Source of the DNA: Escherichia coli
Lineage (GTDB): Bacteria > Pseudomonadota > Gammaproteobacteria > Enterobacterales > Enterobacteriaceae
Reading direction: 5' to 3' (one strand)
Assembly (NCBI RefSeq): GCF_003790525.1
Contig: NZ_CP033636.1
DNA length: 64,000 bases
The position numbers and the translations under genes are program-made. Shown piece after piece: positions 26,495 to 30,799 of the stretch (the first letter of the stretch is position 1; each line of letters opens with the position of its first letter). The notes below the pieces were generated by a model that saw only the letters and a program-made list of their open reading frames with translations, did not search any database and had not been told where the DNA came from.

Positions 26495-29400
26495 TTACTC
26501 ACTGCTTGGTATTGATACAGTGTTTTCAGACTTACTTGCCTCTTCAGCCGGTCCGAAAACTGTCACGTGCTGCGTTGCAAAGTCTCCACTATCATCATAA
26601 GCAATTACTTTTATGTCCTGCTTACCACGGTTAAGGTTTTTAGAAAGTGTAGCCGTACTACCGAAAACGTTCCTTAATTCGCCGTTGATGAACCATTCAT
26701 ATCTAACCATTTTTCCATCAGTATCATCACATTTATTGGTAAAGCTCCAGCTTAGGTTGGTTTCCGTGTAGCTCAATGTACAATTAGGCACTGCGTTTTT
26801 AACGACATCAAACTCAACAGATGCTGAACCTCTCTGTCCAAGTTTACTAACAACATCAATTGTGATCTCGTATTTCTTTTCTTTTAAACCCGAAATCAGT
26901 TGAGCCCAATAATTTTTGCCGCTGGGTATTACCTCACCGTTCACCTTGTATGTGACCGTATCTATCGAGTCCGCCGAATGAGATAGCTTGATGTTTGACC
27001 TTAAGGTTACATCGAGTGGAGCTCTCATATATTTGTTAGAGAACTTGGGTGTCATCTCAACGTTCATTGGCGTTTGTTCATCGACAACAAAGGTATTTTC
27101 GATACGCTGTTCATTGTTGCGGTTATCTTTGAAAACAACCATCAATGTATATTTGCCAGGATTTTCAATTGTAAATTCTTTGGTGTCACCTTCATCTTTA
27201 GTGATTACCAGATTCTCTTTGTCGTAAATCCATTCTCGGGAATAAGTAACACCAGGATAGTCTCCATCCTTAATACCGCTCAACGCAACGCGTAGGGTGG
27301 TCGGTGCCATGTCGTATTTAAGTTTGGAGCTTATTTTCATTTCGGGGAATTTATAAACCCACGATTTGACAGAAACTCTACGGGTAGAAACCGTATTCAC
27401 CTTATTGTCCGCTAACCATGCACTGTATTCAAAAGCAGCATATCCCTGTTTATCCAACATTTGCTCAGTAAGGGTAACAGACAGTGTAGAGCCTTTAAAT
27501 GTCTGGCCATCCGGTGTTTTCCATTCTTCAACTACGTTATTACCATTCTGGTACTTACTGTTAGGGTTCGTGAACTTACCTTCCAAAGTAACTTTTTGAC
27601 CAACCTCTACCTTAGAAACCCCCGTTACCGAGACAGAAAGGCGCTTGGGTTTTGCGGCTGCCAACCGAGCAGACGTTTCCTTCCATGAAGACTCCTCTGC
27701 CAGTTCATCGGAATCAAGGTAACGCATCCGGGCATAAATCGTAGACGGTAGGGTATCAGCTGAAGCCACAGTGTAAGTTGTATCTCCCTGCACCCAGTTG
27801 ACTTTATCCTCTGACCAGAGAACCTCAGCGGTGCCTGCTGGTATAGGCTCATCGTTATCAAGCAGGGTTACAGGTACATCTGAGCCCTGAAGAATGTCTG
27901 TCACATCTATACTGAGCTTAGGCTGCTTGTAGGTAACTACCGTTAAGGCATCTGTGTAGGAAACCTTAGATGTGAATTTATTGGTCATTTTTGCCCTATA
28001 AAGCCACTTTCCTACTTCTGTCTTTTTGATACTTACACTTCTCTTTCCGGTCATGTCGGAAAGCATATTCCAGGTTTGACCATTATCAGAGGACTGCTGC
28101 CATTCGGTGGGGGCAAGTGCGTCAGAGTTAGCAGTACTGGCAGATTTGAAGCTTACCAGAGTACTAAGTGGGATCCTTCCGATAATAAGGCTTTTCGACA
28201 GGTTACCCTCCAGTTCCTCACCTTTATAGATTCGAATGCCTACAGCACTGGTCTCACGTTTCATTTCAAAATCAGAGAATGGCGATCTGACCTTAGCCAC
28301 ACCAACCAGACGCATATTACCCAGATCCATATTTTCAATTTTAATCTTGGTTTCGACAATGCCCGCATCATTGACCGGCAATGCTTCAGTCAGCGCAGTT
28401 CTTTCGTATGTAGTTTTATAACGGCCTGTTTCTGGATCTTTGCCGTATACACTTTTTTGCGAGTATATCGTGACGTCCCATTCTCCCATTGTTTTACGGT
28501 CAAATGCACTTTTACGTGTGGAGTTGTTATAACGCCCCACTGTTACCTTTAAGGGCACTTCAAGAGATGTGGCTGTTTTTCTGTCATCCACTTCCATCGA
28601 TGCTCGAATATTGAAATCAGGCACCGTATATACGTTGAGTGTGTCTGTAGTTCTTAATTCTGGATCCTTTGAGTATTCTACAGCTATGTCAAAGACGTTC
28701 TTTGTCCACAATGGTGCAGCAGCAACCTTAACCCTTTGTACAAAGGTCGTTGCATCGTTGTTTGAGGAACGATTTTTAAATGACGTTTTGACAGCCTCAG
28801 AGCCGTTTTGAGAGACGATCATCGTAACGTCAGCTGGTACCACCTTCGCTAATATTCGAGCGGCCTCCCCCCCGGTCGTATAAGCCAGAGCAGTGTTCGG
28901 ATTGATGCCAGCTATGACTTTATTCTTTTTGTAAGAGATGATCGGGTTGTATGGTAATTGTGTGGTCAGAGTACGGCGATTCCTTGCGGATACCGCTTTA
29001 GAGCCCTTCCCGTTAATCATATAGACTTGATAGTCGAGCAGATTCTCACCTGTTTTATTAAAGAATCCAGTTAGACCCGGGGTACGTCCTTTAAAATAGA
29101 ACTCCAACCCATCAGGGACATTGTTCCACTGAGGGTAGCATGCTGTAACATCTGATTTTTCCCCATACCAGGCGAGGTAAGCATTCGCATTTTCCTCTGT
29201 GGTAAACAGAGTGCATTTATCACCAGCTGTTTGACTAAGCAGGTCCGTATACTGACGTACACGCGAGTAAAGAGTTACGTTTTTTTCCAGATTCTTGAGA
29301 GTGAATCCAGTAGGTTGATAAGTGAAAACGGTACTGAAATTAACGTTTTTTCCATAAAGGTTTTCAGCCACCACAGTAATCTCGTGATCCGAATTAACTG

Positions 29401-30799
29401 CTAAATCGTCTCCAACCGGCAGGTAGTAAATACCTCTATAATTTGTAGGTGTTAACGAAACTACTTTGTTGTCTATTGTTACTGATTTTATGTCAGCAAC
29501 CCCAGCCTGCCCCTGGAAAGCTGCAACGATAATCTCGTTCAGGAAGTATACGGGTGCTCGTTTAGTTAATACCTGCCCATCTTTGAGAACCATAAGCGTT
29601 GGGTTATCAGACAGCATCAGTTTGCTTTCAGGCTCAGTGTACGTAGAAGAGTTTTTGCTCGTATTTTCTACTGTAAAAGTCGCTGCGTAGGACCCGTTTA
29701 TAAGATCCGTTAAGTCGAAGATATAGAGGTACTCATCACCGACTTTTTGAGGTCCACTTACCGGCTGTAAAGTTCTACGTAAAGGGGTTGCCCAGGACTG
29801 TTTGAAATCAATCTCAGTGCCATCATCTAAAGTCACTTTAGTCGTCGGTTTAAACACGCCATCCGGAGTCATAGTGAGCGACATAGCTGTTGGGAGCCAC
29901 CATTCACCTTCTGTTTCTTGCTGGGGTACCTTAACGGCCACAGCAACGGTTTTGGCTCCGGTATAGATGTCCTGGCCACCTACTTTGATTGTTTTAGCCT
30001 CATCGGTAAAATTCCAAAGTGTATGGTCTACTACAGGAGGCCGATAATCCCAGTTAACAACAAGCTTTTTGGATTCAGGAGGTGCGAAATAATTATTCTT
30101 AGAGTTTGCTGTAATTGTGATATCACGTGAACCCAAAAGTTCATCTGTATCACTGGCCTTAATGCTTCCAACTTCAATGGTACAGGAAGTTCCGCCAATA
30201 GGAACTTCACAGGCGGAGCCTGAACCTATTGAGATGTATTGAATATAATTGCGGGGCTCAACAGAAACAGCGATATCTTTGATCGCTTCATCCTTTAAAT
30301 ACGATTTGAAAGAAAAGCCGTCATAGACTAATCCGTTCAGGGATGATTTAAGACCGGTGATAGTAGGTTTTACCGGTGCCACACTTTTGATTGAATATTC
30401 ACCTTTTACTATTTCAACTTTTTTCCGTTCAGAACCAGAGAAGTAAGAAATCTTGTAAGGTAGTTTTAAATCACCGGTGGTGTTGGGAACGCCTGAAAGA
30501 GTGAAACCGTTAGAAGTAAATCCCAAGGTATTGGGTAACCACTCAAAAAAACAAACGAGGTTATCAACAGAGGAAGTCGCTCGATCATCAACCGTTACAT
30601 TACAGGCTGTGCCTGCACCTGAGGCAGTGATAGTGTTAGAATTAACGTATGCAACAAAGTCGCCCGGCCCCGGGTCAAAGGATACGGCTGGCAAATCAGC
30701 CTGTAGCTTTCCTGAAATCATAATCGCTTCGGCGTAGACCGCTTTAATCGGAGCAATTAAAGAAAACAACAGGGCTAAACCTAAACCTGATTTTCTCAT
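26495..30799 (-). CDS. giant secreted protein (1434 aa), probably composed of repeated beta-rich (Ig-like) domains; RSP-like
   Basis: ORF track; cleavable signal peptide (LLFSLIAPIKAVYA-EA); very T/S/V/N/K-rich, repetitive beta-strand-like composition; embedded in the transfer region as recalled for the IncHI RSP bacterial Ig-like protein. Confidence 0.55.
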   Translation of the reverse strand: MRKSGLGLALLFSLIAPIKAVYAEAIMISGKLQADLPAVSFDPGPGDFVAYVNSNTITASGAGTACNVTVDDRATSSVDNLVCFFEWLPNTLGFTSNGFTLSGVPNTTGDLKLPYKISYFSGSERKKVEIVKGEYSIKSVAPVKPTITGLKSSLNGLVYDGFSFKSYLKDEAIKDIAVSVEPRNYIQYISIGSGSACEVPIGGTSCTIEVGSIKASDTDELLGSRDITITANSKNNYFAPPESKKLVVNWDYRPPVVDHTLWNFTDEAKTIKVGGQDIYTGAKTVAVAVKVPQQETEGEWWLPTAMSLTMTPDGVFKPTTKVTLDDGTEIDFKQSWATPLRRTLQPVSGPQKVGDEYLYIFDLTDLINGSYAATFTVENTSKNSSTYTEPESKLMLSDNPTLMVLKDGQVLTKRAPVYFLNEIIVAAFQGQAGVADIKSVTIDNKVVSLTPTNYRGIYYLPVGDDLAVNSDHEITVVAENLYGKNVNFSTVFTYQPTGFTLKNLEKNVTLYSRVRQYTDLLSQTAGDKCTLFTTEENANAYLAWYGEKSDVTACYPQWNNVPDGLEFYFKGRTPGLTGFFNKTGENLLDYQVYMINGKGSKAVSARNRRTLTTQLPYNPIISYKKNKVIAGINPNTALAYTTGGEAARILAKVVPADVTMIVSQNGSEAVKTSFKNRSSNNDATTFVQRVKVAAAPLWTKNVFDIAVEYSKDPELRTTDTLNVYTVPDFNIRASMEVDDRKTATSLEVPLKVTVGRYNNSTRKSAFDRKTMGEWDVTIYSQKSVYGKDPETGRYKTTYERTALTEALPVNDAGIVETKIKIENMDLGNMRLVGVAKVRSPFSDFEMKRETSAVGIRIYKGEELEGNLSKSLIIGRIPLSTLVSFKSASTANSDALAPTEWQQSSDNGQTWNMLSDMTGKRSVSIKKTEVGKWLYRAKMTNKFTSKVSYTDALTVVTYKQPKLSIDVTDILQGSDVPVTLLDNDEPIPAGTAEVLWSEDKVNWVQGDTTYTVASADTLPSTIYARMRYLDSDELAEESSWKETSARLAAAKPKRLSVSVTGVSKVEVGQKVTLEGKFTNPNSKYQNGNNVVEEWKTPDGQTFKGSTLSVTLTEQMLDKQGYAAFEYSAWLADNKVNTVSTRRVSVKSWVYKFPEMKISSKLKYDMAPTTLRVALSGIKDGDYPGVTYSREWIYDKENLVITKDEGDTKEFTIENPGKYTLMVVFKDNRNNEQRIENTFVVDEQTPMNVEMTPKFSNKYMRAPLDVTLRSNIKLSHSADSIDTVTYKVNGEVIPSGKNYWAQLISGLKEKKYEITIDVVSKLGQRGSASVEFDVVKNAVPNCTLSYTETNLSWSFTNKCDDTDGKMVRYEWFINGELRNVFGSTATLSKNLNRGKQDIKVIAYDDSGDFATQHVTVFGPAEEASKSENTVSIPSSE

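What the first reader, a model, noticed from the sequence alone, without database searches (positions are those of the whole stretch)
26495..30799. Giant secreted beta-rich protein embedded in the transfer region (RSP-like)
A 1434-aa exported protein with its own terminator sits between the transfer peptidase and the partition genes. I recall that IncHI plasmids encode a large bacterial Ig-like protein (RSP) required for conjugation and associated with flagella. This gene matches that description in size, signal peptide and location.
Basis: partly seen in the sequence, partly recalled or inferred. Interest (0 to 1): 0.55.

Follow-up and report, generated by a model that had tools for sequence, protein, structure and literature searches.

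The report
Known IncHI conjugation protein RSP

Summary
The 1434-aa ORF at 26495-30799 (- strand) is real. Its DNA is 100% identical to the gene annotated "rsp: IncHI-type conjugal transfer protein RSP" in IncHI2 plasmids, and 1125 plasmid records match it. The protein aligns to the experimentally studied R27 (IncHI1) RSP at 84% identity with no gaps over 1428 residues. It sits in the same Tra2 position (htdA-htdF-htdK-rsp-trhF-trhW-trhU-trhN).

It has a typical Sec signal peptide, a strong intrinsic terminator of its own, and eight cysteines (four close pairs) that are invariant down to 26% identity. The AlphaFold2 models are 54% strand and 3% helix. They show a string of Ig/FN3/PKD-like beta-sandwiches.

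Published work on R27 shows that RSP is exported in a TrhC/TrhH/TrhA-dependent way. It binds flagella and the H-pilus, lowers motility, and is required for liquid mating.

Novelty: already known.

Two small additions:
- The Sec signal plus invariant disulfides argue for two-step export through the periplasm.
- IncHI2 plasmids do carry three divergent RSP2-family paralogues (about 38% identity to R27 RSP2) just beyond the window. This is contrary to the published statement that IncHI2 lacks rsp2.

The parts
26495..30799 (-). rsp coding sequence (1434 aa; precursor 158.5 kDa, predicted mature 156.1 kDa)
   Evidence: ORF listed. 100% nucleotide identity to annotated rsp genes in IncHI2 plasmids. 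84% aa identity, gap-free, to R27 RSP. Masses.
30731..30799 (-). Codons 1-23: predicted Sec signal peptide (MRKSGLGLALLFSLIAPIKAVYA, cleavage before EAIM)
   Evidence: It is the only hydrophobic segment in the protein. The junction is conserved across 18 family members. Assigned by inspection with the -3/-1 rule; no predictor was run.
29969..30298 (-). Codons about 168-277: module shared with the RSP2 family. It contains the invariant Cys197/Cys206 pair.
   Evidence: BLASTP local matches between RSP and the IncHI2, R27 and Vibrio RSP2-family proteins, E 4e-7 to 7e-4. Cysteine invariance.
29309..29734 (-). Codons 356-497: bacterial Ig-like domain, group 3 (Big_3_3, PF13750)
   Evidence: Pfam i-Evalue 0.002 covering model positions 2-149 of 157. 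The same family is precomputed for four homologues. The position corresponds to the published Big 3 domain of R27 RSP at 331-470.
26450..26479 (-). Intrinsic terminator of rsp: 12-bp stem, 3-nt loop, U-run
   Evidence: Sequence. Fold dG -20.4 kcal/mol, z -6.2. Conserved in function downstream of R27 rsp. Missed by the consensus scan.
30800..30918 (-). 119-bp intergenic region upstream of rsp; presumed site of the rsp promoter (not located)
   Evidence: Sequence. No sigma-70 consensus match there. R27 rsp cloned 'with its own promoter' complements a deletion (PMC6764697).
25705..26217 (-). trhF, a TraF-like signal-peptidase-family transfer gene immediately downstream
   Evidence: NCBIfam signal peptidase I TIGR02227 (E 4e-14) and TraF models. 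Annotated TrhF.
30919..32349 (-). Three small H-transfer-determinant genes (htdK-, htdF- and htdA-like) immediately upstream
   Evidence: ORFs. Annotation of the identical plasmid (hdtA plus two hypothetical proteins). The R27 equivalents are named transfer repressor / plasmid transfer proteins.
43637..46318 (-). trhC (TraC-family T4SS ATPase), required for RSP export in R27
   Evidence: ORF. Annotation. Dependence shown for R27 in PMC6764697.
47287..48039 (-). htdT, a periplasmic protein-disulfide isomerase encoded in the same transfer region
   Evidence: Annotation of the identical plasmid, with coordinates converted by window = 243765 - record. Its relevance to RSP disulfides is my inference.
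52895..53248 (-). Small gene at the trhA (H-pilin) position upstream of trhL; TrhA is required for RSP release in R27
   Evidence: 117-aa 'hypothetical protein' directly upstream of TraL, and the same arrangement in R27. The TrhA requirement is from PMC8730810. The assignment as trhA is by position only.

Best explanation
The gene is rsp, the IncHI2 allele of the R27-secreted protein. It is an accessory adhesin of the IncHI (MOBH / MPF-F type) conjugation apparatus.

Shown here:
- It is orthologous to R27 RSP.
- It lies in the Tra2 transfer region.
- It carries a Sec-type signal peptide and four invariant cysteine pairs.
- It models as a chain of roughly 13-15 divergent Ig/FN3/PKD-like beta-sandwich modules, with no membrane anchor, beta-barrel, RTX or LPXTG motif.

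Shown by others for R27 and carried over by homology:
- Transcription is thermoregulated (high at 25 C).
- The protein appears in the periplasm and then outside the cell only if the T4SS ATPase TrhC, the pilus-assembly protein TrhH and the pilin TrhA are present.
- It decorates flagella and the H-pilus, reduces motility, and is required for detectable transfer in liquid.

Inferred mechanism: Sec exports the precursor to the periplasm. There the signal peptide is removed and four disulfides form, possibly with help from the plasmid's own isomerase HtdT. The folded rod-like protein is then carried out together with the growing H-pilus through the T4SS outer-membrane complex. On the surface it binds pilus and flagella, immobilising the donor and stabilising donor-recipient contacts in liquid.
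For: Identity and orthology:
- 100% nucleotide identity to annotated rsp; 1125 plasmid records match, 971 of them conjugative.
- The exact protein is a 2805-member cluster named RSP.
- 84% identity and 93% positives to R27 RSP with no gaps.

Synteny:
- parM / parR-like / htdA / 2 ORFs / rsp / trhF / trhW / trhU / trhN / trhI is found in the window's twin pNDM33-1, in R27, and in a 50%-identity relative.

Architecture:
- Big_3_3 match.
- AlphaFold2 pLDDT 84 and 79, all-beta.

Export route:
- Signal peptide.
- Eight cysteines invariant in 13 of 13 homologues down to 26% identity.
- htdT disulfide isomerase, trhC and the gene at the trhA (pilin) position lie in the same window.

Function (literature on R27):
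- PMC6764697.
- PMC8730810.

IncHI2-specific hint:
- An ISEc27 insertion in rsp of the IncHI plasmid pMG101-A coincides with loss of transfer (PMC8417528).
Against: - No experiment has been done on this IncHI2 allele. The pMG101-A insertion may act through polarity on trhFWUN.
- 16% of residues differ from R27 RSP.
- The only Pfam hit is marginal (E 0.002). The C-terminal half has no Pfam, NCBIfam or PDB sequence match.
- The two-step Sec-then-pilus route is my inference. The authors describe RSP as a T4SS-exported protein with a periplasmic intermediate and do not mention a signal peptide or cysteines.
- Cytoplasmic and inner-membrane RSP signals were also reported.
Confidence: 0.9

Rival explanations
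1. It is a host-directed fibrillar adhesin or virulence factor of the SiiE / SraP / invasin type. It merely happens to be carried on the plasmid and acts on eukaryotic or abiotic surfaces rather than in conjugation.
For: It has a beads-on-a-string Ig-like architecture. The R27 authors reported Phyre2 similarity of the C-terminal region to SiiE and SraP and speculated about adherence to host tissue.
Against: - Its position inside the transfer operon is conserved in relatives down to 50% identity and, more loosely, in a 26%-identity Vibrio relative.
- There are no T1SS genes nearby, no RTX or LPXTG motifs, and no tandem repeats.
- The deletion phenotype in R27 is loss of conjugation, and it is complemented.
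Confidence: 0.05
2. It is a classical one-step T4SS substrate. On this view it is recruited from the cytoplasm by the coupling protein and ATPases and translocated unfolded through the T4SS channel, as the phrase 'exported by the T4SS' suggests.
For: Export needs TrhC, and SSPred predicted a type IV substrate. Loss of TrhH or TrhA causes intracellular accumulation.
Against: - It has a canonical N-terminal Sec signal that is conserved across the family.
- Four cysteine pairs are invariant, which implies oxidative folding outside the cytoplasm.
- A periplasmic pool has been detected.
- TrhC, TrhH and TrhA are all needed for pilus assembly itself. Their requirement is therefore equally explained by pilus-dependent release.
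Confidence: 0.15
3. It is an autotransporter or two-partner (type V) secreted adhesin that inserts its own C-terminal barrel into the outer membrane.
For: It is large, has a Sec signal and has a beta-rich passenger-like body. The R27 authors listed this option.
Against: - The C-terminal 735 residues model as separate beta-sandwich modules, and every top structural match is an Ig/PKD/FN3 domain, not a barrel.
- The last 14 residues are disordered and the protein ends in ...IPSSE, not an aromatic beta-signal.
- RSP was not found in the outer-membrane fraction.
- Export fails without TrhC.
Confidence: 0.02

Closest known systems
RSP of IncHI1 plasmid R27 (ORF R0009; Huttener et al. 2019, PMC6764697)
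   Same: It is the orthologue: 84% identical and collinear. It has the same length (1434 vs 1432 aa), signal peptide, cysteine pattern, Big_3 position, flanking genes (htdK upstream, trhF downstream) and terminator.
   Different: This is the IncHI2 allele, with 16% residue divergence spread along the whole length. All functional data come from R27 in Salmonella. The partner RSP2 is only about 38% identical in IncHI2.
RSP2 (R27 ORF R0055) and related plasmid 'Big' proteins, including the IncA/C protein ALG87338.1 (PMC8730810)
   Same: These are plasmid-encoded, signal-peptide-bearing, Ig-like secreted proteins that bind flagella and pili and aid conjugation at 25 C. They share one module of about 70-110 aa with RSP, at RSP residues about 168-277.
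   Different: They are about 800 aa long and have an N-terminal DUF4165 plus Big_1/Big_3 domains. Outside the shared module they are not homologous to RSP. They are encoded outside Tra2, near the replication genes.
Giant fibrillar Ig-like adhesins SiiE (Salmonella, T1SS) and SraP (S. aureus)
   Same: They are rod-like chains of bacterial Ig-like beta-sandwiches with an adhesive function. The R27 authors cite them as Phyre2 templates for the C-terminal region.
   Different: RSP has an N-terminal Sec signal, no RTX or LPXTG motif, no near-identical tandem repeats and no dedicated T1SS genes. SiiE and SraP are not among the best structural matches. The stated features of SiiE and SraP themselves come from my own knowledge.
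Mating-aggregate factors of other conjugation systems: enterococcal aggregation substance PrgB/Asc10 (pCF10), the PilV adhesin of the IncI1 thin pilus, and F-type TraN/TrhN (from my own knowledge; not tested here)
   Same: They work in a similar way. Each is a surface protein encoded in the transfer region that promotes stable donor-recipient contact and matters most for mating in liquid. The R27 authors draw the analogy to clumping proteins.
   Different: There is no sequence relationship. PrgB is LPXTG-anchored in Gram-positives, PilV is a type IV pilus tip protein, and TraN is an integral outer-membrane protein. RSP is released and decorates pili and flagella. trhN is a separate gene in this window.

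Membership tests
RSP (IncHI-type conjugal transfer protein RSP) | Full-length collinear sequence homology to R27 ORF R0009 | tested here: met
   BLASTP gives 1193/1428 identities (84%), 93% positives and 0 gaps. The exact sequence is a 2805-member cluster named RSP.
RSP (IncHI-type conjugal transfer protein RSP) | Location in the Tra2 transfer region, between the htd genes and trhF | tested here: met
   Annotated twin plasmid pNDM33-1 and R27. The neighbour TrhF is confirmed as signal-peptidase family, and TrhW as a TrbC+TraW protein.
RSP (IncHI-type conjugal transfer protein RSP) | Group-3 bacterial Ig-like (Big_3) domain around residues 330-500 | tested here: met
   Pfam PF13750 at 356-497, nearly full model coverage but a marginal i-Evalue of 0.002. 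The same family is on record for homologues P0003, P0014, P0015 and P0018. That region of the model is beta-sandwich with pLDDT 84-92.
RSP (IncHI-type conjugal transfer protein RSP) | Almost purely beta protein (published: 61% beta, 1% helix by PSIPRED) | tested here: met
   DSSP on the AlphaFold2 models gives 54% strand, 3% helix and 106 strands.
RSP (IncHI-type conjugal transfer protein RSP) | Export to the cell surface or medium that depends on TrhC, TrhH and TrhA | not testable with these tools
   Shown only for R27. trhC and a gene at the trhA position are present in the window. The signal peptide and invariant cysteines fit an extracytoplasmic protein.
RSP (IncHI-type conjugal transfer protein RSP) | Required for conjugation in liquid; binds flagella and the H-pilus; lowers motility | not testable with these tools
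   R27 genetics and immunogold EM. For another IncHI plasmid (pMG101-A) there is only a correlative IS insertion.
T1SS-secreted giant BIg adhesins (SiiE type) | Many near-identical tandem BIg repeats; C-terminal T1SS signal with no N-terminal Sec signal; adjacent ABC/MFP/OMP genes | tested here: not met
   No tandem repeats in the DNA. Internal protein similarity is only weak (best E 2e-4). A Sec signal is present. The neighbours are tra and par genes.
Autotransporters (type V secretion) | C-terminal outer-membrane beta-barrel with a terminal aromatic beta-signal | tested here: not met
   The C-terminal half models as discrete sandwiches that match Ig/PKD/FN3 domains. The C-terminus is ...SIPSSE and disordered.
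Gram-positive aggregation substances (PrgB/Asc10) | LPXTG sortase anchor | tested here: not met
   No LPx[TSA]G motif. This is a functional analogy only.

The most novel reading that the evidence does not exclude
RSP is not a true T4SS-translocated substrate. Instead it is a Sec-exported, four-disulfide periplasmic protein that is loaded onto the H-pilus as the pilus is extruded, making it in effect a pilus-associated adhesin. It works with RSP2-family partners that are universal in MOBH-type plasmids: IncHI1, IncHI2 (three divergent paralogues next to repHI2), IncA/C-type plasmids, and a Vibrio megaplasmid where the rsp-like and rsp2-like genes are neighbours. On this reading an RSP + RSP2 'pilus/flagellum-coating' module would be an ancestral, conserved accessory of this T4SS lineage rather than an IncHI1 peculiarity.
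Probability: 0.4. Interest if true: 0.4.

Novelty: already known. Interest (0 to 1): 0.15.

Why it matters
IncHI2 plasmids are major carriers of mcr-1, blaNDM and other last-line resistance genes. RSP is surface-exposed and essential for efficient IncHI transfer, and it has been proposed as a vaccine and nanobody target (PMC6764697; bioRxiv 10.1101/2023.12.12.571265).

For this scan, the result simply shows that the window is the Tra2 region of an ordinary IncHI2 plasmid with an intact rsp.

Two additions could guide follow-up work:
- Conserved disulfides plus a Sec signal point to a two-step export route.
- Divergent RSP2 paralogues are present in IncHI2.

Follow-up could address how RSP reaches the pilus, and whether anti-RSP/RSP2 reagents raised against R27 would cover IncHI2. 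RSP differs at 16% of residues, and the RSP2 orthologue at about 61%.

Tried and rejected
- NCBIfam HMMs gave no hit for RSP. The NCBI name must come from another rule type.
- Pfam on the C-terminal 934 residues gave nothing significant.
- A PDB sequence search gave only noise, E >= 0.26.
- The first Pfam attempt failed because the protein exceeds 1200 aa, so it was split.
- The consensus promoter/terminator scan missed the obvious terminator and found no promoter upstream of rsp. The terminator was established by reading the sequence and folding it.
- tblastn of R27 RSP2 and two other R27 Ig-like proteins against the window found no homologue inside the window. The paralogues lie just outside it.
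- Structural searches did not reproduce the published specific similarity to SiiE and SraP. Only generic Ig-like arrays were found.
- I considered and rejected the autotransporter, T1SS adhesin and LPXTG-anchored protein options.
- I did not use the 1.84-billion-protein representative search. Identity was already settled, and it would only have refined the family's distribution.

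
Full report
OBSERVATION.

The ORF is exactly as described: 26495..30799, minus strand, ATG start, 1434 codons. At this base composition I estimate that about 5.8% of random codons are stops (my arithmetic). A 1434-codon open frame therefore cannot arise by chance (about 1e-37). The + strand ORFs that overlap it are short (80-158 aa).

The N-terminus is MRKSGLGLALLFSLIAPIKAVYA|EAIM. It has the three regions of a Sec signal peptide and is the only hydrophobic stretch in the protein. The predicted mature protein is 156 kDa, acidic, and rich in Thr, Val and Ser.

The 'own terminator' is real, although the consensus scanner did not list it. Fifteen bases after the TAA stop there is a 12-bp GC-rich stem with a 3-nt loop and a U-run (26479-26450). 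Its dG is -20.4 kcal/mol and z = -6.2 against shuffles. A functionally equivalent hairpin with a different sequence follows rsp in R27.

IDENTITY.

The 4305-bp gene matches 1125 plasmid records: 682 at >=99% identity and 443 at 95-99%. The hosts are mostly Escherichia, Salmonella, Enterobacter and Klebsiella, and 971 records are typed conjugative. In these records the gene is annotated 'rsp: IncHI-type conjugal transfer protein RSP'.

Window bases 1-25000 are 100% identical to E. coli plasmid pNDM33-1 (IncHI2A, MOBH, MPF_F), with window position w corresponding to record position 243765 - w. The rsp gene and the other ORFs I checked fall at the coordinates this mapping predicts.

The exact protein is the representative of a 2805-member cluster that NCBI names RSP.

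The reference protein is R27 ORF R0009. I fetched it from NC_002305. It aligns at 84% identity and 93% positives, with no gap over 1428 residues.

Gene order is the same in the window, in R27, and in an uncultured relative with 50% identity: parM, a parR-like gene, htdA, two small htd genes, rsp, trhF, trhW, trhU, trhN, a lipoprotein gene, trhI. TrhF matches signal-peptidase I / TraF models, and TrhW carries TrbC and TraW modules.

The gene is therefore the IncHI2 orthologue of rsp.

ANATOMY.

Sequence-profile methods see little:
- no NCBIfam hit;
- no PDB sequence relative;
- only one marginal Pfam match, Big_3_3 (PF13750) at residues 356-497, E 0.002.

That Pfam match lies where the R27 authors placed their 'Big 3' domain, at residues 331-470.

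I collected the family: 18 clusters at 90% identity, ranging from 100% to 26% identity. It includes Photorhabdus, Yersinia intermedia and a Vibrio plasmid.

All eight cysteines are invariant in 13 of 13 sequences. They form four close pairs: 66/83, 197/206, 529/554 and 1340/1357.

AlphaFold2 models of residues 24-760 and 700-1434, each built on a nine-sequence alignment, reached mean pLDDT 84 and 79. Together they are 54% strand and 3% helix, with 106 strands. That corresponds to roughly 13-15 beta-sandwich modules.

The protein has no tandem repeats in its DNA. It has no LPXTG or RTX motif and no terminal aromatic residue, and its internal similarity is only faint (residues about 24-190 versus about 519-630, E 2e-4). 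Unlike repetitive fibrillar adhesins, its modules are old and divergent.

HOW IT WORKS.

The function comes from published work on R27:
- RSP is found in the secretome and in the periplasm.
- Its deletion makes transfer in liquid undetectable, and the gene on a low-copy vector restores it.
- Transcription is more than 40-fold higher at 25 C than at 37 C.
- RSP lowers motility and decorates flagella.
- Export needs the T4SS ATPase TrhC.

These points are from PMC6764697.

Later work showed that RSP co-precipitates with RSP2 (R0055) and TrhH. It also showed that release needs TrhH and the pilin TrhA, and that RSP and RSP2 bind the conjugative pilus (PMC8730810).

For other IncHI plasmids the only evidence I found is correlative. 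An ISEc27 insertion in rsp of the IncHI plasmid pMG101-A coincides with loss of transfer, with possible polarity. IS26 has also hit rsp in an IncHI1 fusion plasmid.

My own contribution concerns the export route. The 2019 paper does not mention a signal peptide, cysteines or disulfides. Four things together argue that RSP crosses the inner membrane by Sec, folds oxidatively, and only then is taken out with the pilus:
- the conserved Sec signal;
- the four invariant cysteine pairs;
- the detected periplasmic pool;
- the fact that all three required genes (trhC, trhH, trhA) are pilus-biogenesis genes.

It is therefore unlikely to be a cytoplasmic T4SS substrate. The transfer region in the window also encodes a disulfide isomerase, HtdT. 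This step is inferred, not shown.

RELATED LOCI.

The 50%-identity relative (L007) keeps the full IncHI-type synteny.

In the Vibrio plasmid CP090982.1 the 26%-identity RSP homologue lies 1.2 kb from a 794-aa DUF4165 + Big_3 protein. That protein is 29% identical to R27 RSP2 over its whole length. Both lie near Rep3, ParA/ParB, a Peptidase_S26 gene and a TrbC_Ftype gene.

R27 RSP2 finds full-length protein-level homologues in 3057 plasmid records, 2765 of them below 60% identity. Among them:
- about 38% identity in IncHI2-sized plasmids, one of which carries an rsp identical to this window's;
- about 26% identity in Escherichia, Salmonella, Klebsiella, Shewanella and Providencia plasmids, which I take to be IncA/C-type from my own knowledge of NC_012692.

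On pNDM33-1 there are three such genes (796, 806 and 818 aa) flanking repHI2. The nearest is about 1.1 kb beyond window position 64000. The 796-aa protein is 38.7% identical to R27 RSP2 and is syntenic with it (next to a RelE/ParE toxin gene). The 818-aa protein is 82% identical to an IS30-truncated R27 gene.

The published statement that IncHI2 plasmids lack rsp2 therefore holds only for close, nucleotide-level similarity.

All these proteins share one module with RSP, at RSP residues about 168-277, which includes Cys197/Cys206.

COMPARISON AND VERDICT.

The gene meets every sequence-testable criterion for membership of the RSP family. The functional criteria cannot be tested in silico. It fails the defining features of T1SS giant adhesins, autotransporters and LPXTG aggregation substances, although it probably works like the last of these, by stabilising mating aggregates in liquid.

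The feature is already known, named and annotated in more than a thousand plasmids. Interest is low.

The side observations are modest and would need experiments: two-step export, the RSP2 paralogues in IncHI2, and the shared module.

Noticed in passing
window 39801-43636 (array at 40180-42769): A 3.8-kb stretch between parA and trhC has no ORF of 100 aa or more, and its GC content is about 0.49-0.50 against about 0.40 around it. It holds a tandem array of about 249-bp units, 10.6 copies, 70% matches. No gene is listed there in the identical plasmid, and R27 has a similar 3.1-kb geneless gap at the same place. It may be a partition or incompatibility repeat region.
   Followed up: partly
just beyond window position 64000; pNDM33-1 record 163565-178646 (locus L008): Three Ig-like genes of about 800 aa from the RSP2 family (796, 806 and 818 aa) flank repHI2 on the IncHI2 plasmid that matches this window. 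One is 38.7% identical to R27 RSP2 over its full length and is syntenic with it. This contradicts the published statement that IncHI2 plasmids lack rsp2 (PMC8730810), which holds only at nucleotide level.
   Followed up: yes
window 29969-30298 (RSP residues about 168-277): One module of RSP, containing the invariant Cys197/Cys206 pair, is detectably similar to a module in all RSP2-family proteins tested from R27, IncHI2 and Vibrio (E 4e-7 to 7e-4). It might be a common interface for the pilus, TrhH or each other.
   Followed up: partly
locus L006 (Vibrio sp. plasmid CP090982.1) 4355-12206: In a Vibrio megaplasmid the RSP homologue (26% identity) and an RSP2-like gene (794 aa, DUF4165+Big_3, 29% identity to R27 RSP2) lie about 1.2 kb apart, near Rep3, ParA/ParB, Peptidase_S26 and TrbC genes. 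This suggests the RSP/RSP2 pair is ancestral and extends beyond Enterobacterales, whereas the literature describes RSP as restricted to IncHI plasmids.
   Followed up: partly
rsp in other plasmids (for example NZ_CP095787.1 24474-30114; cluster P0013): rsp is sometimes disrupted in nature. An IS3-family transposase splits an otherwise identical rsp in an E. fergusonii plasmid (H1). A 937-aa truncated form has 208 member sequences. 14 of 1125 records lack 80% coverage in one piece. The literature reports ISEc27 and IS26 insertions.
   Followed up: no
window 24207-25730 (trhW): The gene downstream of trhF encodes a single 507-aa protein that combines a TrbC_Ftype module (residues 199-282) and a TraW module (311-488). 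It is a fusion of two F-type pilus-assembly proteins. The identical plasmid annotates it only as a TrbC family protein.
   Followed up: no
window 26450-26479: The consensus terminator scan missed a textbook intrinsic terminator (dG -20.4 kcal/mol, z -6.2) and listed six weak sites inside the coding sequence instead. This is a caution for relying on that scan alone.
   Followed up: yes
RSP residues about 24-190 versus about 519-630 (window about 28910-30730): There is weak internal similarity (E 2e-4) between the N-terminal region and a central region. Each contains one of the invariant cysteine pairs (66/83 and 529/554). This may be an ancient internal duplication.
   Followed up: no
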